This document shows, piece by piece, positions 14,510-64,000 of a stretch of 64,000 nt of DNA. How positions within the stretch are numbered: position 1 is the stretch's first letter; the number at the start of each line of letters is the position of its first letter. The stretch lies in assembly GCF_054482595.1 (NCBI RefSeq), contig NZ_CM137008.1. One strand, given 5' to 3'. The position numbers were made by a program, and so were the translations under genes. The notes below the pieces were generated by a model, which did no database searches, was not told where the DNA came from, and saw only the letters and a list, made by a program, of their open reading frames with translations.

Positions 14510-14832
14510 TTTTTTGCACGCCCGTATTCAACGGCTTCTTTAAGGAGTTCATTTTCCATCGTTTTTTTGCCGAGCAGGCGCTGGAGTTCTTTAATCTGCT
14601 TCATGGCGGCAGCAAGTTCAGAGGCAGGAACGACCTGTTCTCCTGCGGCCACAGCAGTAAGACTTCCCTCCTGGTATTGCTTGCGCCAGAGAAATAACTG
14701 GCTGGCTGCCACACCGTGTTGCCGGGCAACAAGGGAGACTGTCATTCCCGGTTCAAAACTCTGCTGAACAATAGCGATCTTTTCCTGTGTAGTACGCCGT
14801 CTGCGTTTCTCCGGTCCTAAGACATCAATCAT
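14467..14832 (-). CDS. insC: IS2 transposase OrfA (InsC, HTH)
   Basis: ORF 14467..14877; start at [22 protein letters not shown] (14832); overlaps insD as expected for the frameshift-coupled pair. Confidence 0.9.
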
Positions 14833-45846: not shown

Positions 45847-46106
45847 GTGAAGTGTCCCAGCCTGTTTATCTACGGCTTAAAAAGTGTTCGAGGGGAAAAT
45901 AGGTTGCGCGAGATTATAGAGATCTGGCGCACTAAAAACCAGTATTTCACATGAGTCCGCGTCTTTTTACGCACTGCCTCTCCCTGACGCGGGATAAAGT
46001 GGTATTCTCAAACATATCTCGCAAGCCTGTCTTGTGTTGACAACATTTTCTGCTAACCCTGTGACCTGCAATACTGTTTTGCGGGTGATCGACAAGGAGA
46101 CTTAAC

Positions 46107-47564
46107 GTGTCTGAACTGTCTCAATTATCTCCACAGCCGCTGTGGGATATTTTTGCCAAAATCTGTTCTATTCCTCACCCGTCCTATCATGAAGAGCAAC
46201 TCGCTGAATACATTGTTGGTTGGGCAAAAGAGAAAGGTTTCCATGTCGAACGCGATCAGGTAGGTAATATCCTGATTCGTAAACCTGCTACCGCAGGTAT
46301 GGAAAATCGTAAACCGGTCGTCTTACAGGCCCACCTCGATATGGTGCCGCAGAAAAATAACGACACCGTGCATGACTTCACGAAAGATCCTATCCAGCCT
46401 TATATTGATGGCGAATGGGTTAAAGCGCGCGGCACCACGCTGGGTGCGGATAACGGCATTGGTATGGCGTCTGCGCTGGCGGTTCTGGCTGACGAAAACG
46501 TGGTTCACGGTCCGCTGGAAGTGCTGCTGACCATGACCGAAGAAGCCGGTATGGACGGTGCGTTCGGCTTACAGAGCAACTGGTTGCAGGCTGATATTCT
46601 GATTAACACCGACTCCGAAGAAGAAGGTGAAATCTACATGGGTTGTGCGGGGGGTATCGACTTCACCTCCAACCTGCATTTAGATCGTGAAGCGGTTCCA
46701 GCTGGTTTTGAAACCTTCAAGTTAACCTTAAAAGGTCTGAAAGGCGGTCACTCCGGCGGTGAAATCCACGTTGGCCTGGGTAATGCCAACAAACTGCTGG
46801 TGCGCTTCCTGGCGGGTCATGCAGAAGAACTGGATCTGCGTCTTATTGATTTCAACGGCGGCACACTGCGTAACGCCATCCCGCGTGAAGCCTTTGCGAC
46901 CATTGCTGTCGCAGCTGATAAAGTCGACGCCCTGAAATCTCTGGTGAATACCTATCAGGAGATCCTGAAAAACGAGCTGGCAGAGAAAGAGAAAAATCTG
47001 GCCTTGTTGCTGGACTCTGTAGCGAACGATAAAGCTGCCCTGATTGCGAAATCTCGCGATACCTTTATTCGTCTGCTGAACGCCACCCCGAACGGTGTTA
47101 TCCGCAATTCCGACGTGGCAAAAGGTGTGGTCGAAACCTCCCTGAACGTCGGTGTGGTGACCATGACTGACAATAATGTAGAAATTCACTGCCTGATCCG
47201 TTCTCTGATCGACAGCGGTAAAGACTACGTGGTGAGCATGCTGGATTCGCTGGGTAAACTGGCTGGCGCGAAAACCGAAGCGAAAGGCGCATATCCTGGC
47301 TGGCAGCCGGACGCTAACTCTCCGGTGATGCATCTGGTACGTGAAACCTATCAGCGTCTGTTCAACAAGACGCCGAACATCCAGATTATCCACGCGGGCC
47401 TGGAATGTGGTCTGTTCAAAAAACCGTATCCGGAAATGGACATGGTTTCTATCGGGCCAACAATCACCGGTCCACACTCTCCGGATGAGCAAGTTCACAT
47501 CGAAAGCGTAGGTCATTACTGGACACTGCTGACTGAACTGCTGAAAGAAATTCCAGCGAAGTAA
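46107..47564 (+). CDS. pepD: Cytosol non-specific dipeptidase (aminoacyl-histidine dipeptidase)
   Basis: 485-aa ORF; M20 peptidase. Confidence 0.9.
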   Translation: MSELSQLSPQPLWDIFAKICSIPHPSYHEEQLAEYIVGWAKEKGFHVERDQVGNILIRKPATAGMENRKPVVLQAHLDMVPQKNNDTVHDFTKDPIQPYIDGEWVKARGTTLGADNGIGMASALAVLADENVVHGPLEVLLTMTEEAGMDGAFGLQSNWLQADILINTDSEEEGEIYMGCAGGIDFTSNLHLDREAVPAGFETFKLTLKGLKGGHSGGEIHVGLGNANKLLVRFLAGHAEELDLRLIDFNGGTLRNAIPREAFATIAVAADKVDALKSLVNTYQEILKNELAEKEKNLALLLDSVANDKAALIAKSRDTFIRLLNATPNGVIRNSDVAKGVVETSLNVGVVTMTDNNVEIHCLIRSLIDSGKDYVVSMLDSLGKLAGAKTEAKGAYPGWQPDANSPVMHLVRETYQRLFNKTPNIQIIHAGLECGLFKKPYPEMDMVSIGPTITGPHSPDEQVHIESVGHYWTLLTELLKEIPAK

Positions 47565-47576
47565 TTATTTGATTTG

Positions 47577-47608
47577 CTGCCGGATGGCGTTTAATCGCCT
47601 TCCGGCAG
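47577..47608. terminator. Bidirectional hairpin terminator (pepD / prfH)
   Basis: ctgccggatggcg...cgccttccggcag. Confidence 0.55.
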
Positions 47609-47620
47609 TTTCATCCTTCA

Positions 47621-48356
47621 TTATCCTTCGATAAAAGCCATCCCTGTAAACGTTCGTCGCGGGTTGCCACGTTCAATCTGGTGATGGAACATTCGCCGCT
47701 GCGATTTCAGCACTGCGCTATTTTCCTGTTGCTGTTGCTCCAGCTTCCAGGCAATCAGCAATCGTGCCAGCCGCTTGTTGGCATGCTGGCTGCGCTCTGA
47801 CTGAACCTTCACGCTAATCCAGGTAGCCAGATGCGTGGCGCGCGCCGCCGAATCGGTTTTATTGACATGTTGACCGCCCGGCCCCGACGAACGCAGCGTC
47901 TCATAACGGACCGCGTCGGATTGTTCCTGCTCATCAGCAGTAAAACGCCCAATGCCCAGAAACCAGTTTTTACGCCCATGATGTGGGCGATACGGACTCC
48001 GACAAATCCACTGAATAGTGCCATACCAGCTTTCGCTTAATGCCCATGCGTTGTCGCCATTCAGAGAAACCAGCGCTGAACGCAGGGTGTCAGAGTAACG
48101 ACCTGTTTCTGTTTCCAGCACTGTTACCGCGACGTCTTGTCGGGTAAAAACGACCAACAGAGAAGAACGCTGCGCCAATCGGGTAGCCGCGTCCGGGGTG
48201 TAAATCTGGCATCCCCACTACGCGCTGCATGTTGGGTAAATTTGCCGTGGTGTGTAATTGTTGGATCGCTAAACTCTCGATCCACAGGTCATCAGATGCG
48301 ATGGTAAATACCGCATCGGATAAGGGACGAATATATTTGCCCATGTACCATTCCAT
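47621..48356 (-). pseudogene. prfH: Decayed rtcB-prfH module: RtcB-like N-terminal fragment in one frame fused to a release-factor-H body with a divergent N-terminus
   Basis: 47621..48178 encodes a class-I release-factor fold with GGQ ([15 protein letters not shown]) but an unusual N-terminus; 48090..48356 encodes a short RtcB-like N-terminal stretch ([17 protein letters not shown]) in another frame. Confidence 0.6.
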
Positions 48357-48646
48357 TTATACTCGTCATACTTCAAGTTGCATGTACTGCGACTACGTTC
48401 GTTCACCCCAGTCACTTACTTTAGTAAGCTCCTGGCGATTCACTCGCTTGTCACCTTCCTGCAACTCGAATTATTTAGAGTATATAAATATTAAAAATCA
48501 GGAAATGGCAGACGAATCCAGGGCAAGAAAAAAAGAATTAATCCTGGAAAGGTCTGCAAAGAGTCATTGATAAAGGATTTGTCATGATTTACCTCCTTGC
48601 AGTTTGTGGAATAAGAAAACGCGCACATACCAGGCGGGCGTTATTT

Positions 48647-49114
48647 TCATTGCAAGCTGGATTTAATGTTGCGGTTTATATCGCATAGAAAAATTAGTAA
48701 ACCACGCTCCCCGGCATTCAACGCGCTGCTGCTTAACTGTCTGAAAACCATAACGTTCAAAAAAGGGTTTGCGGTTATGCTTGCGTCCACCGTAAGTTCG
48801 GATTCAGACTTAATCAAAGGTTTTAACAAAGCGCTGGCAACCCCACGGCGGGTGTATTCAGGGTCAACAAATAACATATCGATATAATGTTCAATGCGGG
48901 AAATAAAACCAACCGGTTGTGCATTAATGACTGCAACCCGCACTTGTGATTTCGCGAGTTTCTCCTTCCAGCGAGATTCGTCAATCTGCGCCCAGGCGGC
49001 AATTTGTTGTGGTGAATAATGCTGACTTGCGGTCATCATAACCGCTCTAATGAAAATAGCGCATAGTTGCTGAAAATCGCCAGGCTGATAGTTTCTTATT
49101 TGTATGTTATTCAT
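48647..49114 (-). CDS. yafP: GNAT-family acetyltransferase YafP
   Basis: 155-aa ORF; start overlaps the dinB stop. Confidence 0.8.
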
Positions 49115-50166
49115 AATCCCAGCACCAGTTGTCTTTCCATTTGCGGGTCAAGCAACGTCACATGCAGCCCCACCAGACGCACACCTCGCCCGCCGCGGCG
49201 TTCATCCCAGGTTTTACGCGCGGTGGCGATTAAGTCAGCTTTATTCAGCCTCGGCCAGACGTGCTCCTGGGTGGTTTGCTGAAAATCGTCGAACTTTAAT
49301 TTCACCCCCTGGCGAGCAATCAGTAAATCAGGTTTTACCTTTGCCAGACGGCGTTCAAGTTCCGGATACAGCCGCTCGATAATCGCCTCACATTCAGACC
49401 AGTGATGAATATCTTCCGCCATCGTGCGTTCCACGCCGACGGATTTTCGCAACCGTTCGCTGTTAACATCGCGTTCGTCAATCCCCTGACTACGCTCCCA
49501 CAAAATGCGGCCAAATTTGCCAAAGCGTTTAAGCAGTATCACCAGATCACACTTTTGTACATCACCGCAGGTCCGCAGCCCCATCGCTTCCAGTTTTGCC
49601 GCCGAGACTTTGCCGACGCCGGGGATTTTTGCCAGTGATAAGGTTTGTAAAAATGCCGGAACTTCTGCCGGCGTAATCACAAACTGGCCGTTGGGTTTAT
49701 TCATGTCGGAGGCGATTTTGGCGAGAAACTTTACTGGTGCCACGCCCGCAGATGCCGTCAGTTGCAGCTCGTTGAAAATCGTCTGGCGGATTTCCTGGGC
49801 GATGAGGGTCGCAGAACCGTGGCAATGGACGCTGTCGGTGACATCGAGATAGGCTTCATCCAGTGACAACGGTTCAATGCGCGAGGTGTAGCGCGAGAAG
49901 ATTTCACGGATATGATTTGAGGCTTCTTTGTAGGCGTCAAAGCGCCCCGGAAGCAAGGTGAGATGTGGGCATAATTTGAGCGCCATCCCTGTCGGCATAG
50001 CGCTACGTACGCCAAATTTACGCGCGGGATAATTGGCGGTGCTGATCACCCCTCGACGTTCGCGGCTGCCGCCAATAGCAATAGGGATATCGCGCAGGGC
50101 GGGATTGTCGCGCATCTCCACCGCTGCGAAAAAGCAGTCCATATCCACATGAATGATTTTACGCAT
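49111..50166 (-). CDS. dinB: DNA polymerase IV
   Basis: 351-aa [36 protein letters not shown]... Confidence 0.95.
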
Positions 50167-50182
50167 TGCTCACCTCTCAACA

Positions 50183-50198
50183 CTGGTAAAGTATACAG
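50183..50198. promoter_or_regulatory. LexA (SOS) box upstream of dinB
   Basis: CTGGTAAAGTATACAG (CTG-N10-CAG palindrome) 17-32 bp upstream of the dinB start. Confidence 0.75.
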
Positions 50199-50236
50199 TG
50201 ATTTCAGGGTTTGAGAAATGCGTAAAGATTCAGCAT

Positions 50237-51000
50237 TTAACGCGTTCGCTGCGAAAGCACCTGCTGCTTATCCAGCTTTTGCACCAGTGGCTGCACCACT
50301 TTATCCCCATGCTGACCAAAGTATTGATACAGCGTATCGGACGCACTTTTGGTCAGCACCATAATCTCAATACGCCGATTGCCCGCGCTTTGCGGATTTT
50401 TGGCATCCAGCAGCATCTGGTCCGCCATTGCGCTTACCTGCATCACTTTATCTTCCGGCATTCCGGCCTCTTCCAGCACCCGACGAGCTGAAAGCGCGCG
50501 ATCGCCCGAAAGGTTCCAGTTGTTGTAGATATTGTTTTTGTAGGCCATCGCATCGGTATGCCCGGTAATAATAATTTTGTTATCGAGCGAGTCGAACACT
50601 GGCGCTAGCTCCACCAGCAGCGTTTTAAAGAACGGCATAATCTTCGCGCTGCCGCGTTCGAACATATTGCGATTCTGGTCGTCTTTAATCAGCACGCGTA
50701 ATCCCTGGGGAACAATCTCCATCTCCAGATTCGCTTCCATATGCGCATCACGGGCAATGGTGTTGATACTGGTTGCCAACTCGCCAAGCTCGGTGGCGGA
50801 TTTCTTCTTCAGCAGCGCCGTTTTCTCATTCACATCACGCGCTTTTTTCTCCGTCTCTTCCGGCACCGCCACGGTGGCAGGTTTTGGCGGATGAGACGGG
50901 CTGATTTTATTTAACGGCGACAGCCCACCACCGTTAAAAATCGACTGCCCGTGCAGCGCGGCGATAATGCTTTCACGCTCGGATTTACTGACGCTGTTGA
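50237..51000 (-). pseudogene. lafU: MotB-like Flag-2 motor protein remnant, 5'-truncated
   Basis: C-terminal OmpA-like peptidoglycan-binding domain (ITGHTDAMAY...NRRIEIMVL); the apparent N-terminal 40-50 aa of ORF 50237..51127 is antisense lfhA sequence. Confidence 0.7.
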
Positions 51001-52706
51001 CAATCAACTTTATCGTCGTCACCAAAGGGGCCGAGCGTATTTCCGAGGTTTCTGCCCGCTTTACCCTGGACGCGATGCCCGGCAAACAGATGGCGATTGA
51101 CGCCGACCTTAACGCCGGGTTGATCAACCAGGCGCAGGCGCAAACCCGGCGTAAAGATGTCGCCAGCGAGGCCGATTTCTACGGCGCGATGGACGGGGCA
51201 TCAAAGTTTGTGCGCGGGGACGCCATCGCCGGGATGATGATTCTGGCGATCAACCTGATCGGCGGTGTCTGTATCGGGATCTTCAAATACAACCTGAGCG
51301 CCGATGCTGCCTTCCAGCAATATGTGCTGATGACCATCGGCGACGGGCTGGTGGCGCAGATCCCTTCCCTGCTGCTCTCCACCGCGGCGGCGATTATCGT
51401 CACCCGCGTCAGCGACAACGGCGATATCGCCCATGACGTGCGCCACCAGCTGCTGGCAAGCCCGTCGGTGCTCTACACCGCCACCGGGATTATGTTTGTG
51501 CTGGCGGTGGTGCCGGGAATGCCGCATCTGCCGTTTTTGCTGTTCAGCGCCCTGCTTGGCTTTACCGGCTGGCGGATGAGCAAACGCCCGCAGGCAGCGG
51601 AGGCGGAGGAGAAAAGTCTCGAAACGCTGACCCGCACCATCACCGAAACCAGCGAGCAACAGGTCAGTTGGGAAACGATACCGCTGATCGAGCCTATCAG
51701 TTTAAGCCTCGGCTACAAACTGGTGGCGCTGGTGGACAAAGCCCAGGGCAACCCACTCACCCAGCGGATCCGCGGCGTGCGACAGGTGATATCCGACGGC
51801 AACGGCGTGCTGCTGCCGGAGATCCGCATTCGGGAAAATTTCCGCCTCAAGCCCAGCCAGTACGCCATTTTCATCAACGGTATTAAGGCTGATGAAGCGG
51901 ATATTCCGGCGGATAAACTGATGGCCCTGCCCTCCAGCGAAACCTACGGCGAGATTGACGGCGTGCTGGGGAACGACCCGGCGTACGGGATGCCGGTGAC
52001 CTGGATCCAGCCCGCGCAGAAAGCGAAGGCGCTGAATATGGGGTATCAGGTGATCGACAGCGCCAGCGTGATTGCCACCCATGTGAATAAGATTGTGCGC
52101 AGCTATATTCCTGATTTGTTTAACTATGATGATATTACGCAGTTGCATAATCGTTTGTCGTCGATGGCACCGCGCCTGGCAGAAGACTTAAGCGCGGCGC
52201 TGAATTACAGCCAGTTGCTGAAAGTGTACCGCACACTACTGACCGAAGGCGTTTCCCTGCGCGATATCGTCACCATCGCCACCGTGCTGGTCGCCAGTAG
52301 CGCGGTGACTAAAGATCATATTCTGCTGGCGGCCGATGTACGCCTGGCGCTGCGGCGCAGCATTACCCATCCGTTCGTTCGCAAGCAGGAGCTGACGGTG
52401 TATACGCTGAATAATGAGCTGGAAAATCTGCTCACCAATGTGGTGAATCAGGCGCAACAGGGCGGCAAAGTGATGCTCGACAGCGTGCCGGTTGACCCGA
52501 ATATGCTCAACCAGTTCCAGAGCACGATGCCGCAGGTAAAAGAGCAGATGAAAGCGGCGGGGAAAGACCCGGTGCTGCTGGTGCCGCCGCAGCTTCGCCC
52601 TTTGCTGGCGCGCTATGCGAGATTGTTTGCGCCGGGGCTGCATGTGCTGTCGTATAACGAAGTGCCGGATGAGCTGGAGTTGAAGATTATGGGGGCGTTG
52701 ATGTAG
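50967..52706 (+). pseudogene. lfhA: Flag-2 FlhA-family export-apparatus gene remnant lacking the first ~120 codons
   Basis: ORF begins inside the FlhA transmembrane region (VVTKGAERISEVSARFTLDAMPGKQMAIDADLNAGLI); no upstream coding sequence. Confidence 0.75.
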
Positions 52707-52900
52707 GTATCCGGCATCGGTGCACAACCGCCGGATGCGGCGTGAACGCCTTATCCGGCCTACCGATCCGGCACAGGTTTGTAGGCATGATAAGACGCGC
52801 CAGCGTCGCATCAGGCATCCGCGCACAATTGCCGGATGCGGCACAAGTTTGTAGGCATGATAAGACGCGCTAGCGTCGCATCAGGCATCCGCGCACAATT
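52707..52900. repeat. REP/BIME cluster (several REP palindromes)
   Basis: Repeated gccggatgcggcgtgaacgccttatccggcctac and gtaggcatgataagacgcgccagcgtcgcatcaggc units. Confidence 0.85.
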
Positions 52901-53396
52901 ATGAAATGATACGCTCCCCGGCACTAAAATCCGTTATGTTACCCGCCCAATCAATGGGATATAACCCTCGCGCCACATCGCGATGGAACGTTGAGAATGG
53001 CCAATCACACACCTGCTTTACCCAGCCATGTTTCACTGGATTTATATAAATATAATCAACATGATGCCGATAATCTTTTGTATTACGGATGGCATGCTCC
53101 CAAAAACGTGGTTGCCAGATATTTTTCAATCCACAAGCATGGGTGAATTGCTTTTTAATCTCTCTCCAGCGCGAGGAAAAATCATCATCGCCTTCAGGTA
53201 ATGTCCATATGCAATGCATATGCTCTGGCAAAACGACCCAAGCGTTGATTTCAAAAGGTCTGTCTCGCTTAACGTTAATAATAGCGTTACGGAGCATCTG
53301 GAACTGAGCGGTCAGAAGGTGGCTTCGACGATTTCGTAGGTTAACCGTGAAAAACCAGGTTCCCCCCTTGATGTAATACCGACGATATTCAGACAT
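52899..53396 (-). CDS. rayT: REP-associated tyrosine transposase (RAYT)
   Basis: 165-aa ORF with HuH-type motif (PEHMHCIWTLPEGD) and catalytic Tyr region; flanked by REP clusters on both sides. Confidence 0.8.
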   Translation of the reverse strand: MSEYRRYYIKGGTWFFTVNLRNRRSHLLTAQFQMLRNAIINVKRDRPFEINAWVVLPEHMHCIWTLPEGDDDFSSRWREIKKQFTHACGLKNIWQPRFWEHAIRNTKDYRHHVDYIYINPVKHGWVKQVCDWPFSTFHRDVARGLYPIDWAGNITDFSAGERIIS

Positions 53397-53479
53397 AGCG
53401 ACTCCTTTTTCTCAACGGTAAGAAGAAAAGGAAAGGTTGGCAATGAGGTTGTTTTATATCGGGAAAGCGGCTCGCAAAT

Positions 53480-53575
53480 ATTCGCGGGCTCGTAGGCATG
53501 ATAAGACGCGCCAGCGTCGCATCAGGCACCTGCGTACAACTGCCGGATGCGGCGTAAACGCCTTATCCGTCCTAC
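53480..53575. repeat. REP elements
   Basis: tcgtaggcatgataagacgcgccagcgtcgcatcaggc...gccggatgcggcgtaaacgccttatcc. Confidence 0.85.
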
Positions 53576-54321
53576 AAAATCGTCTCTTCCGTCAAAATCC
53601 GGCGCGCGCCTAAAAAATGATCCTGCCAGAAAGGTTCAGCTAACCGACTTACCCGAATGGTTTCCCCGGTGCGCGGTGACTCAATAAACTGACCGTCGCC
53701 CAGATATACCCCCATATGGTCGGCAATCTCGCGGCTGTGGATATGGAAAAACAGCAAATCTCCCCGGCGCAGGTCGTTATTCGCCACAATCGTTGCCCGA
53801 TGGTAGTGATACATCTCATTAGCCGTACGCTGGAGCTTCGCCTCGAGGATCTTGTTGTAGGCATAAAAAACCAACCCGCTACAGTCAAAGCCTTTATCAG
53901 GCCGCGTGCCGCCCCAGACGTAAGGCTTGCCAAGCTGCTGCTCCAGGCGGTGAATCGCCACTTCGGTAATGTTATGCAGATGGTCGCTGCTTAAAAAGTG
54001 GTTGTTTTCCGCCAGCGCCTGCCAGCGTCTGTCACTCGCCTTGAGCGGCGCAGGAAACCATTCTGGATGCTGTTTTATCTGTTCGCGGTTGTGCTGGCGC
54101 AGCGCCCTTCTGCTTTCGGCATTGCCTTCCACAATATAGCTGGCCTGCTTTTTCAGATGGGTTTGGTACTGTTTTAATAAACGCGCACGGTTTTGCATCC
54201 GCTGGCGGGCGGCGTAGCTGAAAGAGATATGTGATGTGGTGGCGCTGGCAAATGAAGAAAACGGCAAACAAATCAACAGTAATCCCGACAATACAAAGGA
54301 TGGAATCGACGGCAAGGACAT
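53572..54321 (-). CDS. yafL: NlpC/P60-family peptidoglycan endopeptidase lipoprotein YafL
   Basis: ORF 53572..54381; start at MSLPSIPSFVLSGLLLICLPFSSFA; catalytic Cys context GFDCSGLVFYAY and His (HMGVYLGDG). Confidence 0.85.
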   Translation of the reverse strand: MSLPSIPSFVLSGLLLICLPFSSFASATTSHISFSYAARQRMQNRARLLKQYQTHLKKQASYIVEGNAESRRALRQHNREQIKQHPEWFPAPLKASDRRWQALAENNHFLSSDHLHNITEVAIHRLEQQLGKPYVWGGTRPDKGFDCSGLVFYAYNKILEAKLQRTANEMYHYHRATIVANNDLRRGDLLFFHIHSREIADHMGVYLGDGQFIESPRTGETIRVSRLAEPFWQDHFLGARRILTEETIL

Positions 54322-54498
54322 ACTCAATAATGGCTGGTCATGCTTTAATGTTGCAGTGTATCCCGGATCGTTTCTGAACAAACTTAATAAACCATTATTA
54401 TAAAATTAACATATATATTTCAGTGAATTATGTAAATACATCAGTTTATTGAATTGCTCATAAATTGCCGCTGTTGCTCAATTGAGCTACAATTCAAG

Positions 54499-54514
54499 CT
54501 GAATATATATACAG
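54499..54514. promoter_or_regulatory. LexA box upstream of dinJ
   Basis: CTGAATATATATACAG 17 bp upstream of the dinJ start. Confidence 0.75.
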
Positions 54515-54530
54515 CACAGGAGATACCCCA

Positions 54531-54791
54531 ATGGCTGCAAATGCATTTGTTCGCGCCCGAATCGATGAAGATCTGAAGAATCAGGCGGCGGACGTACTGG
54601 CCGGGATGGGGCTGACCATCTCTGACCTGGTTCGCATAACCCTCACAAAGGTCGCGCGTGAAAAGGCATTGCCGTTTGATTTACGCGAGCCTAATCAATT
54701 AACCATTCAATCAATCAAAAACAGCGAAGCTGGCGTTGGTGTTCATAAGGCCAAAGACGCCGATGATTTATTTGATAAATTAGGAATTTAA
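54531..54791 (+). CDS. dinJ: Antitoxin DinJ
   Basis: 86-aa MAANAFVRARIDEDLKNQAADVLAGMGLTISDLVRITL... Confidence 0.9.
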   Translation: MAANAFVRARIDEDLKNQAADVLAGMGLTISDLVRITLTKVAREKALPFDLREPNQLTIQSIKNSEAGVGVHKAKDADDLFDKLGI

Positions 54792-54793
54792 AT

Positions 54794-55072
54794 ATGATTC
54801 AAAGGGATATTGAATACTCGGGACAATTTTCAAAGGATGTAAAACTTGCACAAAAGCGTCATAAGGATATGAATAAATTGAAATATCTTATGACGCTTCT
54901 TATCAATAATACTTTACCGCTTCCAGCTGTTTATAAAGACCACCCGCTGCAAGGTTCATGGAAAGGTTATCGCGATGCTCATGTCGAACCGGACTGGCTC
55001 CTGATTTACAAACTTACCGATAAACTTTTACGATTTGAGAGAACTGGAACTCACGCGGCGCTCTTTGGGTAA
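54794..55072 (+). CDS. yafQ: mRNA interferase toxin YafQ (RelE fold)
   Basis: 92-aa MIQRDIEYSGQFSKDVKLAQKRHKDMNKL...; 2 bp after dinJ. Confidence 0.9.
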   Translation: MIQRDIEYSGQFSKDVKLAQKRHKDMNKLKYLMTLLINNTLPLPAVYKDHPLQGSWKGYRDAHVEPDWLLIYKLTDKLLRFERTGTHAALFG

Positions 55073-55227
55073 AGCCCGCTGCCGATGAAATTTGTAAACC
55101 CTGCGCCGACAGGCTTGCGTAAAACTCTTTTGGTGATAATGTGAGCCTTCCAAATCCAGACTATTCCGATTTGGGATCCATTTTGCCGTCCTGGCGTGTG
55201 TAACCGTTTTATCAAGGAATAAGCAGT

Positions 55228-55968
55228 ATGCGTAAAATCGCATTAATTCTTGCGATGTTGTTGATCCCGTGCGTTTCGTTTGCCGGTTTGCTGGGCAGCA
55301 GTAGCTCGACCACGCCAGTGAGCAAAGAGTATAAGCAGCAGTTGATGGGATCCCCTGTCTACATCCAGATCTTCAAGGAAGAACGTACGCTCGATCTCTA
55401 CGTCAAAATGGGTGAGCAATATCAACTGCTCGACAGCTATAAAATCTGTAAATATTCCGGCGGCTTAGGGCCAAAACAGCGTCAGGGCGATTTCAAAAGC
55501 CCGGAAGGGTTTTATAGCGTCCAGCGTAATCAGTTAAAACCAGACAGCCGTTACTACAAAGCGATTAATATTGGTTTCCCCAATGCCTATGACCGTGCGC
55601 ATGGTTATGAAGGGAAATACCTGATGATCCACGGCGATTGTGTTTCCATCGGCTGCTACGCAATGACCAATCAGGGTATTGATGAGATCTTCCAGTTCGT
55701 TACTGGTGCGCTGGTGTTTGGTCAGCCGAGCGTGCAAGTGAGTATTTACCCGTTCCGCATGACCGACGCTAATATGAAGCGCCACAAATATTCCAACTTT
55801 AAGGACTTCTGGGAGCAACTGAAGCCAGGCTACGACTACTTTGAGCAAACCCGTAAGCCACCGACCGTTTCTGTGGTCAATGGCCGTTACGTGGTCAGCA
55901 AGCCGTTAAGCCACGAAGTTGTGCAACCACAACTGGCATCAAACTACACGCTCCCCGAGGCAAAATAA
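55228..55968 (+). CDS. yafK: L,D-transpeptidase-family periplasmic protein YafK
   Basis: 246-aa ORF with signal peptide; YkuD-like motif [14 protein letters not shown]. Confidence 0.85.
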
Positions 55969-56706
55969 GCGCCATTCGCCTGGCATAATCTTTTGCCAGG
56001 TTTCATTGCCCGTCAGCGGCTGTGTCGCAATCACCGTGACCACATCATTCGGTGTGGTCTGCGAGCTGAAGTCGATTTCTACATCCTGATCCAGCAACGT
56101 TGCCACGCCAAACGGCGCGCGGCGGGTGATCCAGTGTAAATTAGTCGAGCAATACGCCATTACATAGCGACCGTCCGAAAGCAGCATGTTGAAAACGCCC
56201 TTCGCCCGCAGTTCATCCGCCAGTGAGGCGATATATTTAAACACTGCCGCCATGTTGCCCGGCGTGCGCGGGTAACGCTGCGTTAATTTATGCAGGAGCC
56301 AGCAAAAGGCTTTTTCGCTGTCGGTTTCACCGACCGGGCGGAAGTTGCCGGTTTCCAGTGATTTGTAGCCCGTCAGTTGCCCGTTATGGGCATAAGTCCA
56401 GTTACGCCCCCATAACTCGCGGGTAAACGGGTGAGTATTTTCCAGCGCCACCTCGCCCCGATTAGCCTGGCGAATATGAGCCACCACCGAACAGGATTTT
56501 ATCGGGTAGTCCTGGACCAGTTTGGCGATAGGTGAGTTAAAGCTGGGTTGCGGATCTTTAAATGTGCGACAGCCTTTACCTTCGTAAAAGGTAATGCCCC
56601 AGCCATCTTTATGTGGCCCGGTTCCACCACCACGCTGCACCAGACCGGTGAAACTAAAGCAGATATCGGTAGGGACGTTGGCGCTCATCCCGAGCAATTC
56701 GCACAT
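55939..56706 (-). CDS. yafJ: Class II glutamine amidotransferase YafJ
   Basis: ORF 55939..56721; N-terminal [11 protein letters not shown] (Cys2 nucleophile). Confidence 0.85.
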
Positions 56707-56759
56707 GGGTAACCTCCACAACAGCGGGAGCGCATGGCCCCCGGCGAAGATTGATTTAA

Positions 56760-56905
56760 GAATTTTCAGGTCGGATGCGGCGTGAACGCATTATTCGGCC
56801 TACGGTTCGCGTACAGATTTGTAGGCATGATAAGACGCGTCAGCGTCGCATCAGGCATCGGTGCACAATTGCCGGATGCGGCGTAAACGTCTTATCCGGC
56901 CTACG
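56760..56905. repeat. REP/BIME cluster
   Basis: tcggatgcggcgtgaacgc...gtaggcatgataagacgcgtcagcgtcgcatcaggc...gccggatgcggcgtaaacgtcttatccggcctacgcc. Confidence 0.85.
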
Positions 56906-56911
56906 CCAGAC

Positions 56912-57490
56912 TTACTTAACCATCTCTTTTTCAATCAACTGGATCAGGATATGGATCACTTTAATGTGAATCTCCTGAATGCGGTCGGCATAACCAAAGT
57001 GCGGTACGCGAATTTCGATATCCGCCGTGCCAGCCATTTTGCCGCCGTCTTTACCGGTCAGGGTGATCACTTTCATTCCCTTCTCACGCGCCGCTGCGAT
57101 CGCTTTGATCACGTTTGCAGAGTTACCGGAGGTGGAGATCCCCAGCAGTACATCGCCTTCGCGACCTACCGCTTCAACGTAACGGGAGAAAATATCATTG
57201 AAACCGAAATCGTTACCGACGCAGGAAATATGACTAACGTCAGAAATAGCAATCGCCGGGTAGCCCGGACGGTTTTCACGGTAGCGACCGGTCAACTCTT
57301 CGGCAAAGTGCATAGCGTCGCAATGGGAACCGCCGTTGCCGCAGGAAAGCACTTTGCCACCGGCTTTAAAGCTGTCTGCTAACAGGACCGCCGCGCGCTG
57401 AATGGCGTGAATATTGGCGTCATCTTTTAAAAAGTTAGCCAGCGTTTCCGCCGCTTCGTTCAGTTCGTTACGAATAAGATCCTGGTACAT
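56912..57490 (-). CDS. gmhA: Sedoheptulose-7-phosphate (phosphoheptose) isomerase
   Basis: ORF 56912..57652; start at [17 protein letters not shown] (192 aa); SIS domain. Confidence 0.9.
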
Positions 57491-57691
57491 GAGGATATCC
57501 TTCAGCATAAATGTAATAGACAAAATGCAGTGTACCGGATACCGCCAAAAGCGAGAAGTACGGGCAGGTGCTATGACCAGGACTTTTTGACCTGAAGTGC
57601 GGATAAAAACAGCAACAATGTGAGCTTTGTTGTAATTATATTGTAAACACATTGCTAAATGTTTTTACATCCACTACAACCATATCATCAC

Positions 57692-57708
57692 AAGTGGTCA
57701 GACCTCCT
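57692..57708. promoter_or_regulatory. FadR operator upstream of fadE
   Basis: AAGTGGTCAGACCTCCT resembles the FadR consensus (TGGTCnGACC core), 22 bp upstream of the fadE start. Confidence 0.6.
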
Positions 57709-57729
57709 ACAAGTAAGGGGCTTTTCGTT

Positions 57730-60174
57730 ATGATGATTTTGAGTATTCTCGCTACGGTTGTCCTGCTCGGCGCGTTGTTCTATCACCGCGTGAGCTTATT
57801 TATCAGCAGTCTGATTTTGCTCGCCTGGACAGCCGCCCTCGGCGTTGCTGGTCTGTGGTCGGCGTGGGTACTGGTGCCTCTGGCCATTATCCTCGTGCCA
57901 TTTAACTTTGCGCCTATGCGTAAGTCGATGATTTCCGCGCCGGTATTTCGCGGTTTCCGTAAGGTGATGCCGCCGATGTCGCGCACTGAGAAAGAAGCGA
58001 TTGATGCGGGCACCACCTGGTGGGAGGGCGACTTGTTCCAGGGCAAGCCGGACTGGAAAAAGCTGCATAACTATCCGCAGCCGCGCCTGACGGCTGAAGA
58101 GCAAGCGTTTCTCGACGGCCCGGTAGAAGAAGCCTGCCGGATGGCGAATGATTTCCAGATCACCCATGAGCTGGCTGATTTGCCGCCGGAGTTGTGGGCG
58201 TACCTTAAAGAGCATCGCTTCTTCGCGATGATCATCAAAAAAGAGTACGGCGGGCTGGAGTTCTCGGCTTATGCCCAGTCTCGTGTGCTGCAAAAACTCT
58301 CCGGCGTGAGCGGGATCCTGGCGATTACCGTCGGCGTGCCGAACTCATTAGGCCCGGGCGAGCTGCTGCAACATTACGGCACTGACGAGCAGAAAGATCA
58401 CTATCTGCCGCGTCTGGCGCGTGGTCAGGAAATCCCTTGCTTTGCACTAACCAGCCCGGAAGCGGGTTCCGATGCGGGCGCGATTCCGGATACCGGGATT
58501 GTCTGCATGGGTGAATGGCAGGGCCAGCAGGTGCTGGGCATGCGACTGACCTGGAACAAACGCTACATTACGCTGGCACCGATTGCGACCGTGCTGGGTC
58601 TGGCATTTAAACTCTCCGACCCGGAAAAATTGCTGGGTGGCGCAGAAGATTTAGGTATTACCTGTGCGCTGATCCCGACCACCACGCCGGGCGTGGAAAT
58701 TGGTCGTCGCCACTTCCCGCTGAACGTACCGTTCCAGAACGGACCGACGCGCGGTAAAGATGTCTTCGTGCCGATCGATTACATCATCGGCGGGCCGAAA
58801 ATGGCCGGGCAAGGCTGGCGGATGCTGGTGGAGTGCCTCTCGGTAGGCCGCGGCATCACACTGCCTTCCAACTCAACCGGCGGCGTGAAATCGGTAGCGC
58901 TGGCAACCGGCGCGTATGCTCACATTCGCCGTCAGTTCAAAATCTCTATCGGTAAGATGGAAGGGATTGAAGAGCCGCTGGCGCGTATTGCCGGGAACGC
59001 TTATGTAATGGATGCTGCGGCATCGCTGATTACCTACGGCATTATGCTCGGCGAAAAACCTGCCGTGCTGTCGGCTATCGTTAAGTATCACTGTACCCAC
59101 CGCGGGCAGCAGTCGATTATTGATGCGATGGATATTACCGGCGGTAAAGGCATTATGCTCGGGCAAAGCAACTTCCTGGCGCGTGCTTACCAGGGCGCAC
59201 CGATTGCCATCACCGTTGAAGGGGCTAACATTCTGACCCGCAGCATGATGATCTTCGGACAAGGAGCGATTCGTTGCCATCCGTACGTGCTGGAAGAGAT
59301 GGAAGCGGCGAAGAACAATGACGTCAACGCGTTCGATAAACTGTTGTTCAAACATATCGGTCACGTCGGTAGCAACAAAGTTCGCAGCTTCTGGCTGGGC
59401 CTGACGCGCGGTTTAACCAGCAGCACGCCAACCGGCGATGCCACTAAACGCTACTATCAGCATCTTAACCGCCTGAGCGCCAACCTCGCCCTGCTTTCTG
59501 ATGTCTCGATGGCAGTGCTGGGCGGCAGCCTGAAACGTCGTGAGCGTATCTCGGCACGTCTGGGGGATATTTTAAGCCAGCTTTACCTCGCCTCTGCCGT
59601 TCTGAAGCGTTATGACGACGAAGGCCGTAATGAAGCCGATCTGCCGCTGGTGCACTGGGGCGTACAGGATGCGCTGTATCAGGCAGAACAGGCGATGGAC
59701 GATTTACTGCAAAACTTCCCGAACCGCGTGGTTGCCGGGCTGCTGAATGTGGTGATCTTCCCGACCGGACGTCATTATCTGGCACCGTCTGACAAGCTGG
59801 ATCATAAAGTGGCGAAGATTTTACAAGTGCCGAACGCCACTCGTTCACGTATTGGTCGCGGTCAGTACCTGACGCCAAGCGAGCATAACCCGGTTGGTTT
59901 ACTGGAAGAGGCGTTGGTGGATGTGATTGCCGCCGACCCGATTCATCAGCGGATCTGTAAAGAGCTGGGTAAAAATCTGCCATTTACCCGTCTGGATGAA
60001 CTGGCGCACAACGCGCTGGCGAAGGGGCTGATTGATAAAGATGAAGCCGCTATTCTGGTGAAAGCGGAAGAAAGCCGTCTGCGCAGTATTAACGTTGATG
60101 ATTTTGATCCGGAAGAGCTGGCGACGAAGCCGGTAAAGTTGCCGGAGAAAGTGCGGAAAGTTGAAGCCGCGTAA
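57730..60174 (+). CDS. fadE: Acyl-CoA dehydrogenase FadE
   Basis: ORF 57652..60174; start at [13 protein letters not shown] (814 aa). Confidence 0.9.
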
Positions 60175-61614: not shown

Positions 61615-62040
61615 GTGGGGGCTGTGTTTAGGGCCGGGGAGAGTCGGGGTAAGACTACGAAAGCCCGCTCTCCTGCGACCACTTTTATCATAGGAGTGTG
61701 GAAGCGCTTTTCCATCAATCGCGATGACGTCTTTGTCATTTGATGAATGGCAGTCACGCATCCAGTTAATAAAGCACTCGTGAAATTTTGCAGGACTGAT
61801 ACAGGATACAACTCTGGCAATGGTATCGTGAACAGGCATACCATTTTCAAAATCACCATATTGCTTCAAAAAATCGAGATGTGTTTCCCCAAAACCCTCT
61901 ATATCTTCCCAACCTTCTGCACCAGAAATAACGGCACAAATAGTCAACAGTAGAATATCCGATAATTTATGTTCCACGTTCCAGGCTTGTCTGTAATCAG
62001 GGATAATAGAAATATGTTCCATCAATTTTTTAAGTTCCAT
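61552..62040 (-). pseudogene. H-repeat-associated (ISAs1-family) transposase, N-terminal fragment
   Basis: First ~120 aa ([61 protein letters not shown]...) match H-rpt proteins, then the frame diverges and runs antisense into yafV. Confidence 0.75.
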
Positions 62041-62343
62041 TTTGTTCTCCTTAATTATGCAAGGAGTATTTGATCATGTATAAGCAATAAAAACAGCTTC
62101 AGGTAATGAGGAATATCTCAATTTTTAAACATAAAATGCGAACTATTTAGTACAAAAAGTGAACTTCTGATGATCTTTCCCTGGATTTACATTAGGTTGG
62201 TTATTTTCCATACCCACAACTATATTTTCTCTCTGAATTTAATACGTGCAAGACAATCGCAGCACTCTAACTGACTTCGATGTGATTTGATGTTCAGAAA
62301 AATCCCTCATTAGATTATTATCATGAAATACAGCCAATTATCT

Positions 62344-63369
62344 TTAGTTTTTATATTTCTCAATATATTCTTTTGAAAGGATTCGCGCCTTTTCAAACTC
62401 TTCAGGAGTTAATCTATTTTCCATCTTCAATTTATATTGAACACTTTTATCAAGTCCATGAGCGTATGCGGCACTGAACCAGGCATATGCCTTTTTATTA
62501 TCGAGTGGTAACTCTTTCGTGCCTACGGAATAGATTAATGCAAGATTATGTTGTGCAACAGGATCACCATGTGTGGCTGACTTTCTTAACAGTTCTATTG
62601 CTTTATATTTATTTACAGTAATCCCACCCAGTCCTTCATAGTAAAAGATACTTAGTGCTGATTGTGCTTTTATGAAACCTTGACTTGCCGATTTATCATA
62701 CCAAAAGGCGGCTTTATTATAATCCTTTTTAATAATAACGCCTTCATAATAGAGTCGCCCTAAATGATACTGAGCAACCTTATCCCCTTGCTCCGCAGCG
62801 ATACGATACCACTTATCTGCCAGATCTTTTTTATTAGTCTCATCATATAGTAAAGCAAGGTTAGTTTGAGCCGTAACTAATCCAGAATTTGCAGCTTTAT
62901 TTAACCACGCTATGGCCTTACCATAATCTCTTATCACGCCACTCCCTTTACTATATAATACTCCTAAGTTTCCCTGCGCTTCTGGAAAACCTTTTTCAGC
63001 TGCCATTTGATAACATTCAAATGCTTTTTCATAATTTTGAGACACCCCATAACCATGAGCATACATAACACCGAGGTTATACTGAGCCTCTGTCAGCCCC
63101 TGTTTTGCTGCAAGCGAGTACCAATATACTGCATCTTTATAACTCTGGATTCCTTCAGAACCACTTCGATATAACTCCGCGAGTTTAAATTGCGCAGTAG
63201 CATCTCCCTTATCAGCATCTTTTCTTATATATGTCATTTTATTGGAGGCTGCTGTGTCTTCTGTCACCCCAATTGCAACAGGAATACTCAACACTTCAAA
63301 AAAAAACATCACAACAACACACATTAATATTTTTCGGTTATTTTTTATCGGCATCTTTTTTATCATCAC
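62344..63369 (-). CDS. Secreted Sel1-repeat (TPR-like) protein; candidate immunity protein
   Basis: 341-aa ORF; N-terminal hydrophobic signal/anchor; about 8 tandem Sel1 repeats (AQxxLGxxYxxGxGVxxDYxKAxxWYxKAA); immediately downstream of the toxin tip. Confidence 0.7.
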   Translation of the reverse strand: MMIKKMPIKNNRKILMCVVVMFFFEVLSIPVAIGVTEDTAASNKMTYIRKDADKGDATAQFKLAELYRSGSEGIQSYKDAVYWYSLAAKQGLTEAQYNLGVMYAHGYGVSQNYEKAFECYQMAAEKGFPEAQGNLGVLYSKGSGVIRDYGKAIAWLNKAANSGLVTAQTNLALLYDETNKKDLADKWYRIAAEQGDKVAQYHLGRLYYEGVIIKKDYNKAAFWYDKSASQGFIKAQSALSIFYYEGLGGITVNKYKAIELLRKSATHGDPVAQHNLALIYSVGTKELPLDNKKAYAWFSAAYAHGLDKSVQYKLKMENRLTPEEFEKARILSKEYIEKYKN

Positions 63370-63472
63370 CTTTAAATTTATCTACCGCTTCACTAGAAGT
63401 CATGTCAGTAATATAATCTCCAAATGCATTTTCAGGCACAAAGGGTAATTTACCCAAAGTTGCACCTAATAA

Positions 63473-64000
63473 TTACTCCGCTCCTGTATCAGCAGCAGCA
63501 TAAACACCAGATTTAAAATCCCCTCCCTTACTTAAAAATGACAATCCCATTTTCAAAGCTATTTTCTCAACAAACGTTTTTCCCGCTCCCCAAGAACCAC
63601 CTAAAGCACATAGCGCCAACTCGGATTTATCCGGCATCTTATGATCAGACATATAGTCAGTCGTAGCAACCGCACCACATGAACTAAGACTTCCAATTGC
63701 TATCTCCCCCCATGTAAGAGTCCCCCCTTCTAATGCAGCCGCACTTGCTACTGGCCCGGTAAATACTACTCCGGCAATAACAGGAGGCAGTAAAGCCCAT
63801 CCTTTTACATAATCGTCTAATGGATTATACACTCCACGCATACTTGAAAAATCATCCAACGCTTTAAATTTTTCTTCATCTGACAGGTTCGGGGCGAATC
63901 CAACATTAGCCCCCTGCATAGTGTTATAATAATTAGTTCCAAATATCATTTGCGGCGTTACATTAGCTAACCCCAACGGATCTATATGTTCAATAGGATT
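63473..64000 (-). CDS. C-terminal tip of an Rhs-type polymorphic toxin (5' end beyond window)
   Basis: Frame is open to the window edge; translation at 63970-64000 reads NPIEHIDPLGL (PxxxxDPxGL demarcation motif), followed by a ~165-aa glycine-rich, partly hydrophobic domain ending at the stop at 63473. Confidence 0.6.
   Translation of the reverse strand, partial: NPIEHIDPLGLANVTPQMIFGTNYYNTMQGANVGFAPNLSDEEKFKALDDFSSMRGVYNPLDDYVKGWALLPPVIAGVVFTGPVASAAALEGGTLTWGEIAIGSLSSCGAVATTDYMSDHKMPDKSELALCALGGSWGAGKTFVEKIALKMGLSFLSKGGDFKSGVYAAADTGAE

What the first reader, a model, noticed from the sequence alone, without database searches (positions are those of the whole stretch)
52707..53575. RAYT transposase bracketed by REP clusters
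The HuH tyrosine transposase gene is flanked on both sides by the REP palindromes it is thought to mobilise, and a third REP cluster lies at 56760-56905. This is a good locus for studying REP proliferation.
Basis: partly seen in the sequence, partly recalled or inferred. Interest (0 to 1): 0.3.

Follow-up and report, generated by a model that had tools for sequence, protein, structure and literature searches.

The report
E. coli rayT gene with REP flanks
This is the well-known E. coli rayT (yafM, tnpA-REP) gene, sitting as usual between clusters of the REP hairpin repeats its enzyme cuts; the locus has already been studied in detail, so the finding is correct but ordinary.

Summary
A 165-aa ORF at 52899-53396 (minus strand) is RayT/TnpA_REP. 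It differs from the crystallised E. coli enzyme (PDB 4ER8) at 8 of 165 residues, and all published active-site residues are kept. It is bordered by REP palindromes of the y and z2 types: y, z2, a truncated y and z2 on its 3' side (52730-52886), and one z2-y pair on its 5' side (53492-53575). A third y-z2-y cluster lies at 56770-56904. These are the only eight full REPs in the 64-kb window. Seven of them fold into the canonical hairpin with a 5' GTAG.

This is the E. coli "REPtron", the main experimental model for REP-associated transposases (Nunvar 2010; Ton-Hoang 2012; Messing 2012; Corneloup 2021).

I reproduced it on 5,426 complete genomes:
- rayT is single-copy, and in every strain examined it lies between yafL and the flhA remnant; 66% of genomes carry it.
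- The 5' side carries one z2-y pair in all nine strains; the 3' side varies from 2 to 6 REPs.
- Strains without rayT carry hicAB there, or only REPs, or (one strain) an unrelated repeat.

In vitro cleavage of REP DNA is established. Mobilisation in living cells remains inferred.

Novelty: already known. Interest: low.

The parts
50967..52706 (+). Left neighbour: an N-terminally truncated flhA (lfhA/fhiA) remnant of the deleted Flag-2 flagellar cluster. Its TAG stop (52704-52706) lies inside the GTAG of a REP scar.
   Evidence: ORF. Pfam FHIPEP hit covering profile positions 99-656 only. Annotated as an flhA pseudogene missing its N-terminus in the identical strain GF66.1.
52703..52716 (+). REP scar GTAGGTATCCGGCA: the GTAG and the outer stem of an inverted REP whose hairpin interior has been deleted.
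   Evidence: Sequence. Strain VG1046 has a complete z2 REP at the same place.
52730..52763 (-). y-type REP (the 5'-GTAG-hairpin reads on the minus strand), a perfect match to the consensus.
   Evidence: 0 mismatches. Folds at -12.2 kcal/mol, z -2.9.
52781..52816 (+). z2-type REP (the 5'-GTAG-hairpin reads on the plus strand). With the preceding y it forms a BIME-2/REPIN-like pair.
   Evidence: The pair folds as a long hairpin at -23 kcal/mol, z -2.7.
52831..52842 (-). Truncated y REP: only the arm GCCGGATGCGGC survives. Relative to K-12, 31 bp are deleted between CGGCA microhomologies. This deletion creates the 70-bp tandem repeat 52765-52830 / 52835-52900.
   Evidence: (family D1, 95% identity, spacing 70), and comparison with the K-12 sequence.
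52851..52886 (+). Second z2-type REP. It begins 12 nt downstream of the rayT stop codon, so it lies in the rayT 3' UTR.
52899..53396 (-). rayT (yafM, tnpA_REP): REP-associated tyrosine transposase, 165 aa, intact.
   Evidence: 4ER8 E=1e-113; NF047646 at 178 bits; annotated rayT in strains that match the locus 100% over the queried stretch; active-site residues kept; dN/dS about 0.06-0.1 against other alleles.
53397..53491 (-). 95-bp rayT upstream region between the start codon and the 5' REP pair. No promoter was identified.
   Evidence: Sequence. No minus-strand sigma-70-like site in the consensus scan. The region is the same length in all nine rayT-carrying strains examined.
53492..53527 (+). 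z2-type REP of the single BIME on the 5' side, identical to 52781-52816.
53542..53575 (-). y-type REP of the 5' BIME. The yafL stop codon TAG (53572-53574, minus strand) is the TAG of its GTAG.
   Evidence: The z2/y pair folds as a REPIN-like hairpin at -21.9 kcal/mol, z -3.7.
53572..54321 (-). Right neighbour: yafL (NlpC/P60, C40 peptidase), transcribed in the same direction as rayT and located upstream of it.
   Evidence: Pfam NLPC_P60 E=1.6e-32; annotation; translation check.
56770..56904 (.). Third REP cluster, between lpcA/gmhA (56912-57490, minus) and yafJ (55939-56706, minus): a decayed y (56770-56803), z2 (56821-56856) and y (56871-56904).

Best explanation
This is the Escherichia coli REPtron: the single-copy, vertically inherited rayT (yafM / tnpA_REP) gene between yafL and the flhA remnant, together with the REP/BIME repeats that border it.

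RayT is a monomeric HUH / single-tyrosine nuclease related to the IS200/IS605 transposases. It binds a single-stranded REP hairpin through the 5' GTAG and the AA/GC bulge. It cleaves at CT dinucleotides on either side and can join the cleaved strand to another 3'-OH. It is thought to act in trans on REP/BIME units across the chromosome, seeding new copies and changing tandem copy number, rather than moving itself.

Shown here:
- the identity of the gene and of the REPs;
- intact catalytic residues;
- hairpin folding;
- single-copy status, and the same yafL/flhA context wherever it was inspected, in E. coli genomes;
- purifying selection on the gene;
- a fixed 5' BIME and a variable 3' REP array.

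Shown by others in vitro: binding, cleavage and strand transfer.

Inferred only: that this activity is what spreads REPs in living cells.
For: - Protein identity: 4ER8_A at E=1e-113, with 157/165 residues identical to K-12 RayT. NCBIfam equivalog NF047646 scores 178 bits against a cutoff of 80.
- Active site: H59, M60, H61, Y115, N119, H123 and E161, as listed in PMC3479197, are all present.
- Repeats: eight y/z2 REPs with GTAG lie in three clusters, five of them abutting rayT, with none expected by chance. Seven fold into the bulged hairpin. The z2/y pairs fold as REPIN-like long hairpins.
- Population data: rayT is present in 3,568 of 5,426 complete E. coli genomes, with a median of 1 and a maximum of 2 copies. 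The two plasmid records inspected and identified are F'128 and a chromosome-like fragment with the same neighbouring genes.
- Flanks: in nine rayT-carrying strains the 5' gap is always 175 bp and carries one z2-y pair, while the 3' gap varies from 144 to 319 bp with 2-6 REPs.
- Selection: dN/dS is about 0.05-0.1 between alleles.
- Literature: the same architecture and the name 'REPtron', with in vitro cleavage and recombination (PMC3333891); the absolute requirement for GTAG and the Y115F catalytic mutant (PMC8266576); E. coli RAYTs placed in Group 2, mostly single-copy and vertically inherited (PMC5581495).
Against: - No in vivo transposition or amplification of E. coli REPs by RayT has been demonstrated. 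A mobilome sequencing study found no circular REP intermediates (bioRxiv 10.1101/2024.07.17.603846).
- One third of E. coli genomes lack rayT yet keep their REPs. Ton-Hoang et al. saw only minor differences in REP number, although Park et al. report fewer REPINs without the gene (PMC8049555).
- The crystal structure shows the C-terminal tail blocking the active site, so the enzyme is auto-inhibited.
- Pfam Y1_Tnp matches only below its threshold (14.8 against 23 bits). That is expected for this divergent clade.
Confidence: 0.95

Rival explanations
1. RayT is a domesticated nuclease kept for a host function that acts on REPs, such as their maintenance, chromosome structuring or processing of REP-containing nucleic acids. 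On this reading it is not a mobilising transposase, and the flanking REPs are binding or regulatory sites for its own expression. This overlaps with the best explanation rather than excluding it.
For: - Single copy at the same chromosomal context in every strain inspected, and strong purifying selection (dN/dS about 0.06).
- Housekeeping-like distribution of RAYT genes (PMC5581495).
- The rayT stop codon is 12 nt from a REP, and a conserved single BIME lies 95 bp upstream of the start codon.
- The enzyme's C-terminal tail is auto-inhibitory.
Against: - One third of E. coli genomes have lost the gene, or carry it as a pseudogene (O157 EDL933 has W99*). Any host function is therefore dispensable.
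- The in vitro strand-transfer activity is that of a recombinase.
Confidence: 0.3
2. The REP clusters next to rayT are coincidental. REPs simply accumulate in the 3' regions of genes, and both rayT flanks contain gene 3' ends: the flhA remnant and rayT converge on the left, and yafL ends on the right.
For: REP density in the window (8 in 64 kb) is about the genome average, taking 'about six hundred' REPs in K-12 (PMC8266576). All three clusters sit just after a stop codon.
Against: - The chance that two of three clusters flank one named gene is about 0.002.
- The association recurs in all nine rayT-carrying strains examined and across genera (PMC2817692; PMC3333891).
- Where hicAB replaces rayT, the flanking BIMEs are gone too (L005).
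Confidence: 0.03
3. The unit is an autonomous IS200/IS605-type insertion sequence, with REP hairpins serving as its subterminal ends, and it transposes as a whole.
For: The layout resembles IS200/IS605: a Y1 HUH transposase gene between hairpins carrying a 5' guide tetranucleotide. There is a weak Pfam Y1_Tnp match.
Against: - One copy per genome (median 1, maximum 2) across 3,574 genomes, in the same yafL/flhA context in every strain inspected.
- The plasmid copies that were inspected and identified are F'128 or a chromosome fragment.
- The Pfam score is below the gathering threshold.
- The flanking REP number is variable and asymmetric.
- The authors of the original study also reject this reading.
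Confidence: 0.02

Closest known systems
E. coli K-12 MG1655 REPtron 'Ec' (rayT = yafM = tnpA_REP, between yafL and fhiA/lfhA)
   Same: - Same locus and same neighbouring genes.
- Same single z2-y BIME 5' of the gene, with an identical 175-bp gap.
- Same REP types (y, z2).
- All active-site residues identical, in a protein of 165 aa.
   Different: - An allelic variant with 8 amino-acid differences (Q26H, T30A, Y32F, H37N, K41N, S130C, D153N, V154I) and 7% nucleotide divergence (dS 0.34).
- The 3' side has y, z2, a truncated y and z2, where K-12 has y-z2-y-z2, because of a 31-bp deletion.
IS200/IS605 family Y1 transposases (e.g. TnpA of IS608)
   Same: HUH motif plus a single catalytic tyrosine, single-stranded DNA hairpin substrates with a 5' tetranucleotide, and a gene bracketed by hairpins (PMC3479197).
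   Different: RayT is a monomer with an auto-inhibitory C-terminal tail. It is single-copy and does not move itself. It scores below the Pfam Y1_Tnp threshold.
Pseudomonas fluorescens REPIN-RAYT systems (RAYT Group 3)
   Same: A single-copy RAYT flanked by inverted REP pairs (REPINs) that fold as long hairpins (PMC3116915, PMC5581495).
   Different: A different RAYT group (E. coli is Group 2) and different REP sequences. E. coli REPs form mixed y/z2 BIME arrays rather than uniform REPINs.

Membership tests
RAYT / TnpA_REP (Group 2, E. coli REPtron) | Sequence membership in the curated family model | tested here: met
   NCBIfam NF047646 REP_Tyr_transpos (equivalog) scores 178.3 bits against a cutoff of 80. 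4ER8_A matches over the full length at E=1e-113.
RAYT / TnpA_REP (Group 2, E. coli REPtron) | HUH motif, a single catalytic tyrosine and the metal ligands (H59, M60, H61, Y115, N119, H123, E161) | tested here: met
   All are present in the translated ORF. The residue list comes from PMC3479197.
RAYT / TnpA_REP (Group 2, E. coli REPtron) | Single copy per genome at one conserved chromosomal locus, not on mobile elements | tested here: met
   3,574 genomes have a match, with a median of 1 and a maximum of 2 places per genome. The gene lies between yafL and flhA' in every strain inspected. The two plasmid records inspected and identified are F'128 and a chromosome-like fragment.
RAYT / TnpA_REP (Group 2, E. 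coli REPtron) | Gene bordered on both sides by GTAG-tagged REP/BIME sequences | tested here: met
   REPs at 52730-52886 and 53492-53575.
RAYT / TnpA_REP (Group 2, E. coli REPtron) | One invariant BIME on the 5' side and a variable REP/BIME number on the 3' side across strains (PMC3333891) | tested here: met
   In nine strains the 5' gap is always 175 bp with one z2-y pair, and the 3' gap ranges from 144 to 319 bp with 2-6 REPs.
RAYT / TnpA_REP (Group 2, E. coli REPtron) | Binds and cleaves single-stranded REP DNA at CT dinucleotides and performs strand transfer | not testable with these tools
   Shown in vitro for the K-12 protein, which is 95% identical (PMC3333891, PMC3479197, PMC8266576). 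Not tested for this allele.
RAYT / TnpA_REP (Group 2, E. coli REPtron) | Mobilises or amplifies REPs in vivo | not testable with these tools
   Not demonstrated for E. coli in the literature read.
E. coli REP (y, z2) / BIME-2 | Imperfect palindrome of 35-37 nt preceded by GTAG, with a conserved AA/GC mismatch bulge | tested here: met
   All eight copies carry GTAG. Seven fold as stem / 2x2 internal loop / stem; the y at 56770-56803 has decayed and does not fold.
E. coli REP (y, z2) / BIME-2 | y and z2 alternate in opposite orientation, separated by short linkers, often in tandem | tested here: met
   Every y has its GTAG on the minus strand and every z2 on the plus strand, with linkers of 14-17 nt.
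E. coli REP (y, z2) / BIME-2 | High copy number dispersed over the genome | tested here: met
   A query containing the REPs hit 171,764 places in 5,425 genomes, with a median of 32 per genome. This is an undercount, because the search keeps at most 40 aligned pieces per record.
IS200/IS605 insertion sequence | Transposase passes the Pfam Y1_Tnp (PF01797) gathering threshold | tested here: not met
   14.8 bits against a cutoff of 23, E=0.032.
IS200/IS605 insertion sequence | The element transposes as a unit, giving multiple copies or varied locations | tested here: not met
   Median of one copy per genome and the same genomic context wherever inspected.

The most novel reading that the evidence does not exclude
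The roughly 2.5 kb centred on rayT (about 51.5-54 kb) is a local trough of identity. It is 93.6-95% identical to K-12, against about 97-99.8% on either side, and 89-93% identical to UTI89, against about 96-98%. Synonymous divergence is very high (rayT dS 0.22-0.46; yafL 3' end up to 0.69), and the relationships among strains differ between rayT and the adjacent yafL end.

The most novel reading not excluded is that the REPtron is a long-lived recombination or allele-exchange hotspot. On this reading, RayT-made single-strand breaks at the flanking BIMEs stimulate the exchange. That would also account for the recurrent loss of the gene by 'precise excision' and its replacement by hicAB.

More ordinary causes are at least as likely: weak codon bias with high dS in poorly expressed genes, neutral decay of the flhA pseudogene, and ordinary homologous recombination.
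Probability: 0.1. Interest if true: 0.45.

Novelty: already known. Interest (0 to 1): 0.07.

Why it matters
REPs are among the most abundant non-coding repeats in E. coli, and RayT is the only candidate enzyme for spreading them. The locus therefore matters for understanding how bacterial genomes acquire and maintain repeat populations. It is already the standard model: the crystal structure, in vitro biochemistry, SELEX and a 110-strain comparison have been published. This window adds one more allele (8 amino-acid changes, none at an active-site residue) and one more variant of the 3' REP array. The open question, whether RayT moves REPs in vivo, is not brought closer by this sequence alone.

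Tried and rejected
- **Source strain.** I first took strain XH990 as the source because it matched 1.3 kb at 100%. The window is not collinear with it upstream of about 50.9 kb: XH990 has an intact Flag-2 flagellar cluster and the window has the deletion. Strain GF66.1 matches essentially the whole window apart from one IS2.
- **Pfam.** At default settings the search gave no family for the ORF. At E<=10 only a sub-threshold Y1_Tnp hit appeared. NCBIfam and PDB settled the identity.
- **Promoters and terminators.** The consensus scan of 52600-53700 found no minus-strand promoter for rayT and no intrinsic terminator, so the transcription signals are unresolved.
- **Stop-proximal REPs.** I recall from memory (Liang, Rudd and Deutscher 2015) that REPs close to a stop codon reduce translation. 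A literature search did not retrieve that paper, and a 2026 REP preprint does not discuss stop codons, so this remains an uncited lead.
- **rayT on plasmids.** This would contradict the published view. Of three records inspected, one is F'128, one is a non-mobilizable record carrying the same chromosomal genes, and one (82% identity, sparsely annotated) lies among dinB and yafJ-type chromosomal genes. I rejected plasmid carriage.
- **DNA-contact residues.** I checked whether the 8 substitutions hit residues named in Messing 2012; a text search for those residues found nothing. Only the active-site list could be checked.
- **Heavy tools.** I did not run structure prediction, the large protein-database searches or metagenome scans, because a crystal structure of a protein 95% identical exists.

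Full report
**What is in the sequence**

The interval 52707-53575 contains one ORF of 165 aa on the minus strand (52899-53396). It sits between two blocks of palindromic repeats.

The protein matches the crystallised E. coli TnpA_REP (PDB 4ER8) over its full length at E=1e-113. It differs from the K-12 protein at 8 of 165 positions: Q26H, T30A, Y32F, H37N, K41N, S130C, D153N and V154I. It passes the NCBIfam equivalog model "REP-associated tyrosine transposase" at 178 bits against a cutoff of 80. Pfam's IS200-type Y1_Tnp model matches only below threshold, at 14.8 against 23 bits.

The active-site residues listed for the crystal structure are H59, M60, H61, Y115, N119, H123 and E161 (PMC3479197). 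All are present in this protein.

**The repeats**

Consensus searches found four y-type and four z2-type REPs in the whole 64-kb window. Shuffled sequence gave none. A looser scan found no further full copies. All eight lie in three clusters.

| Position | Feature |
|---|---|
| 52703-52716 | REP scar GTAGGTATCCGGCA, containing the stop codon of the flhA remnant |
| 52730-52763 | y |
| 52781-52816 | z2 |
| 52831-52842 | truncated y arm |
| 52851-52886 | z2 |
| 52899-53396 | rayT (minus strand) |
| 53492-53527 | z2 |
| 53542-53575 | y |
| 56770-56803 | y, decayed |
| 56821-56856 | z2 |
| 56871-56904 | y |

- Every y has its GTAG on the minus strand and every z2 on the plus strand. This is the alternating arrangement of a BIME-2.
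- Seven of the eight fold as single-stranded DNA into the stem / AA-GC bulge / stem hairpin preceded by GTAG. The 3-mismatch copy at 56770-56803 does not fold.
- Adjacent z2/y pairs can also fold as long REPIN-like hairpins, for example -21.9 kcal/mol with z -3.7.
- With roughly 55-65 intergenic gaps in the window, two of three clusters flanking one named gene has a chance of about 0.002.

**Where the window comes from**

The window is E. coli chromosome. Strain GF66.1 matches 46000-58000 at 100% and essentially the whole window at 99.98-99.99% apart from one insertion. RefSeq annotates the ORF as rayT.

The neighbours are a truncated flhA (lfhA/fhiA) on the left and yafL, dinJ-yafQ, dpaA, yafJ, lpcA and fadE on the right. 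This is the K-12 yafM context.

- rayT alone matches 3,574 of 5,426 complete E. coli genomes, and 3,568 (66%) hold at least 80% of it. The median is one copy per genome and the maximum is two.
- Thirteen plasmid records match. Of the three I inspected, one is F'128, one is a chromosome-like fragment carrying the same neighbouring genes, and one (82% identity, sparsely annotated) lies among dinB and yafJ-type chromosomal genes.
- In nine rayT-carrying strains, the gap between the rayT start and the yafL stop is always 175 bp and carries one z2-y pair. The gap on the 3' side varies from 144 to 319 bp and holds 2 to 6 REPs.
- The window's 3' array differs from K-12's y-z2-y-z2 by a 31-bp deletion between CGGCA microhomologies. 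The deletion removed most of the second y and created a 70-bp tandem repeat.
- Strains without rayT fall into three kinds: hicA-hicB between flhA and yafL with no REPs (L005); only a y / degenerate-z / y array (L004, L007); or an unrelated GC-rich repeat (L006).
- O157:H7 EDL933 carries rayT with an internal stop, W99*.

**All of this is already published**

Ton-Hoang et al. [quoted passage not shown]
- tnpA_REP is present in two-thirds of them, at a unique site between yafL and fhiA.
- The 5' side carries a single BIME and the 3' side a variable number.
- In phylogroup B2 strains the gene has been precisely excised and the BIMEs retained.
- In phylogroup B1 strains it has been replaced by hicAB.

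They named the structure a REPtron and showed in vitro binding, cleavage and recombination of single-stranded BIMEs.

Other work covers the rest of the picture:
- Messing et al. 2012 solved the structure with REP DNA.
- Corneloup et al. 2021 used "REPtron Ec" as the main model. They confirmed that GTAG tolerates no mutation and that Y115F is catalytically dead (PMC8266576).
- Nunvar et al. 2010 (PMC2817692) and Bertels and Rainey defined RAYTs and REPINs.
- Bertels et al. 2017 placed the E. coli enzyme in RAYT Group 2, whose members are mostly single-copy and vertically inherited.
- Park et al. 2021 compared REPIN numbers in E. coli with and without the gene.

**Mechanism**

The best-supported account is that RayT is a monomeric HUH/Y1 nuclease. 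It recognises single-stranded REP hairpins through the GTAG and the bulge, cuts at nearby CT dinucleotides, and can transfer the cut strand. It acts in trans on REP/BIME units and does not move itself.

- Shown here: identity, intact catalytic residues, REP folding, single-copy status in a conserved context, and purifying selection (dN/dS 0.05-0.1).
- Shown by others: the in vitro chemistry.
- Inferred: that this activity spreads REPs in cells. A mobilome study found no circular REP intermediates. A third of strains do without the gene.

Among the rivals:
- A domesticated host function acting on REPs is plausible and not exclusive (0.3).
- Coincidental flanking is unlikely (0.03).
- An autonomous IS200/IS605-type element is contradicted by the copy number and the conserved location (0.02).

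**Side observations**

- Three stop codons sit in or next to REPs. The flhA' and yafL TAG codons are the TAG of a GTAG, and the rayT TAA lies 12 nt from a z2 stem.
- The 2.5 kb around rayT is a local trough of identity to K-12 and UTI89. Synonymous divergence there is high and the relationships among strains are mosaic.
- The window also carries a 1,331-bp IS2 with a CAGCG target duplication at 13593-14923.
- It lacks yafN-yafO, which K-12 has.
- It ends in an ISAs1 remnant and an RHS element.

**Verdict**

The locus is already known. Interest is low.

Noticed in passing
window 13593-14923: A 1,331-bp IS2-like element of the IS3 family, absent from the otherwise near-identical strain GF66.1. 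It has overlapping ORFs of 136 and 301 aa on the minus strand, imperfect terminal inverted repeats and a 5-bp target duplication CAGCG. It is inserted just downstream of, or at the 3' end of, a LysR-family regulator gene (ORF 14921-15712, minus strand).
   Followed up: partly
window 51500-54000: A local trough of nucleotide identity centred on rayT: 93.6-95% to K-12 against about 97-99.8% on either side, and 89-93% to UTI89. Synonymous divergence is very high (rayT dS 0.22-0.46, yafL 3' end up to 0.69) while dN/dS stays near 0.06. Strain relationships differ between rayT and the adjacent yafL end, which suggests mosaic recombination or old alleles.
   Followed up: partly
window 52704-52706, 52899-52901, 53572-53574, 56912-56914: Stop codons sit in or beside REPs. 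The flhA-remnant and yafL TAG codons are the TAG of a REP's GTAG. The rayT TAA is 12 nt from a z2 stem. The lpcA TAA is 7 nt before a y REP's GTAG. From memory, stop-proximal REPs have been reported to lower translation; I could not retrieve that paper here.
   Followed up: partly
window 50237-51127 and 50967-52706: The scar of the Flag-2 lateral-flagellar deletion: a shortened lafU (minus strand) overlaps the start of an N-terminally truncated flhA, as in K-12. Strain XH990 has the identical rayT allele but an intact Flag-2 cluster of about 37 kb at this point.
   Followed up: partly
window about 49111-49117: The yafN-yafO toxin-antitoxin pair, which lies between dinB and yafP in K-12 and UTI89 (about 750 bp), is absent here. 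In this window dinB overlaps yafP directly.
   Followed up: partly
L010 (E. coli O157:H7 EDL933) 451-948: rayT is a pseudogene in EDL933 (internal stop, W99*). Its 3' flank is the shortest seen (144 bp, one y-z2 pair), and the flhA remnant ends differently there.
   Followed up: no
L005, L004/L007 and L006 (strains without rayT): Three different 'empty' states occur between flhA and yafL: hicA-hicB with no REPs; a y / degenerate-z / y array in which the z copies have GTCG instead of GTAG; and an unrelated GC-rich palindromic repeat. In all of them the last bases of the y REP (CCTAC) are retained, because they provide the yafL stop codon. The first two states are published (PMC3333891); I did not look up the third.
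   Followed up: partly
L017 (plasmid F128-(C3026)) 3501-3998; L016 (pHNAH212872-2) 4001-4498: rayT occurs on 13 records labelled as plasmids. Those inspected and identified are the laboratory F'128 episome, which carries the chromosomal dinB-rayT-yafL segment, and a non-mobilizable 'plasmid' that looks like a chromosomal fragment. Neither is real horizontal carriage of rayT.
   Followed up: yes
window 56770-56803: The first y REP of the third cluster has three substitutions (GTCGGATG...CATTATTCGG) and no longer folds as a hairpin (z +0.17), although it keeps its GTAG. It appears to be a decaying copy next to two intact ones.
   Followed up: yes
window about 61670-64000: Collinearity with K-12 ends at about 61673, at an ISAs1-family transposase remnant. 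This is followed by a tetratricopeptide-repeat gene and the start of an RHS element core protein, according to the GF66.1 annotation.
   Followed up: no
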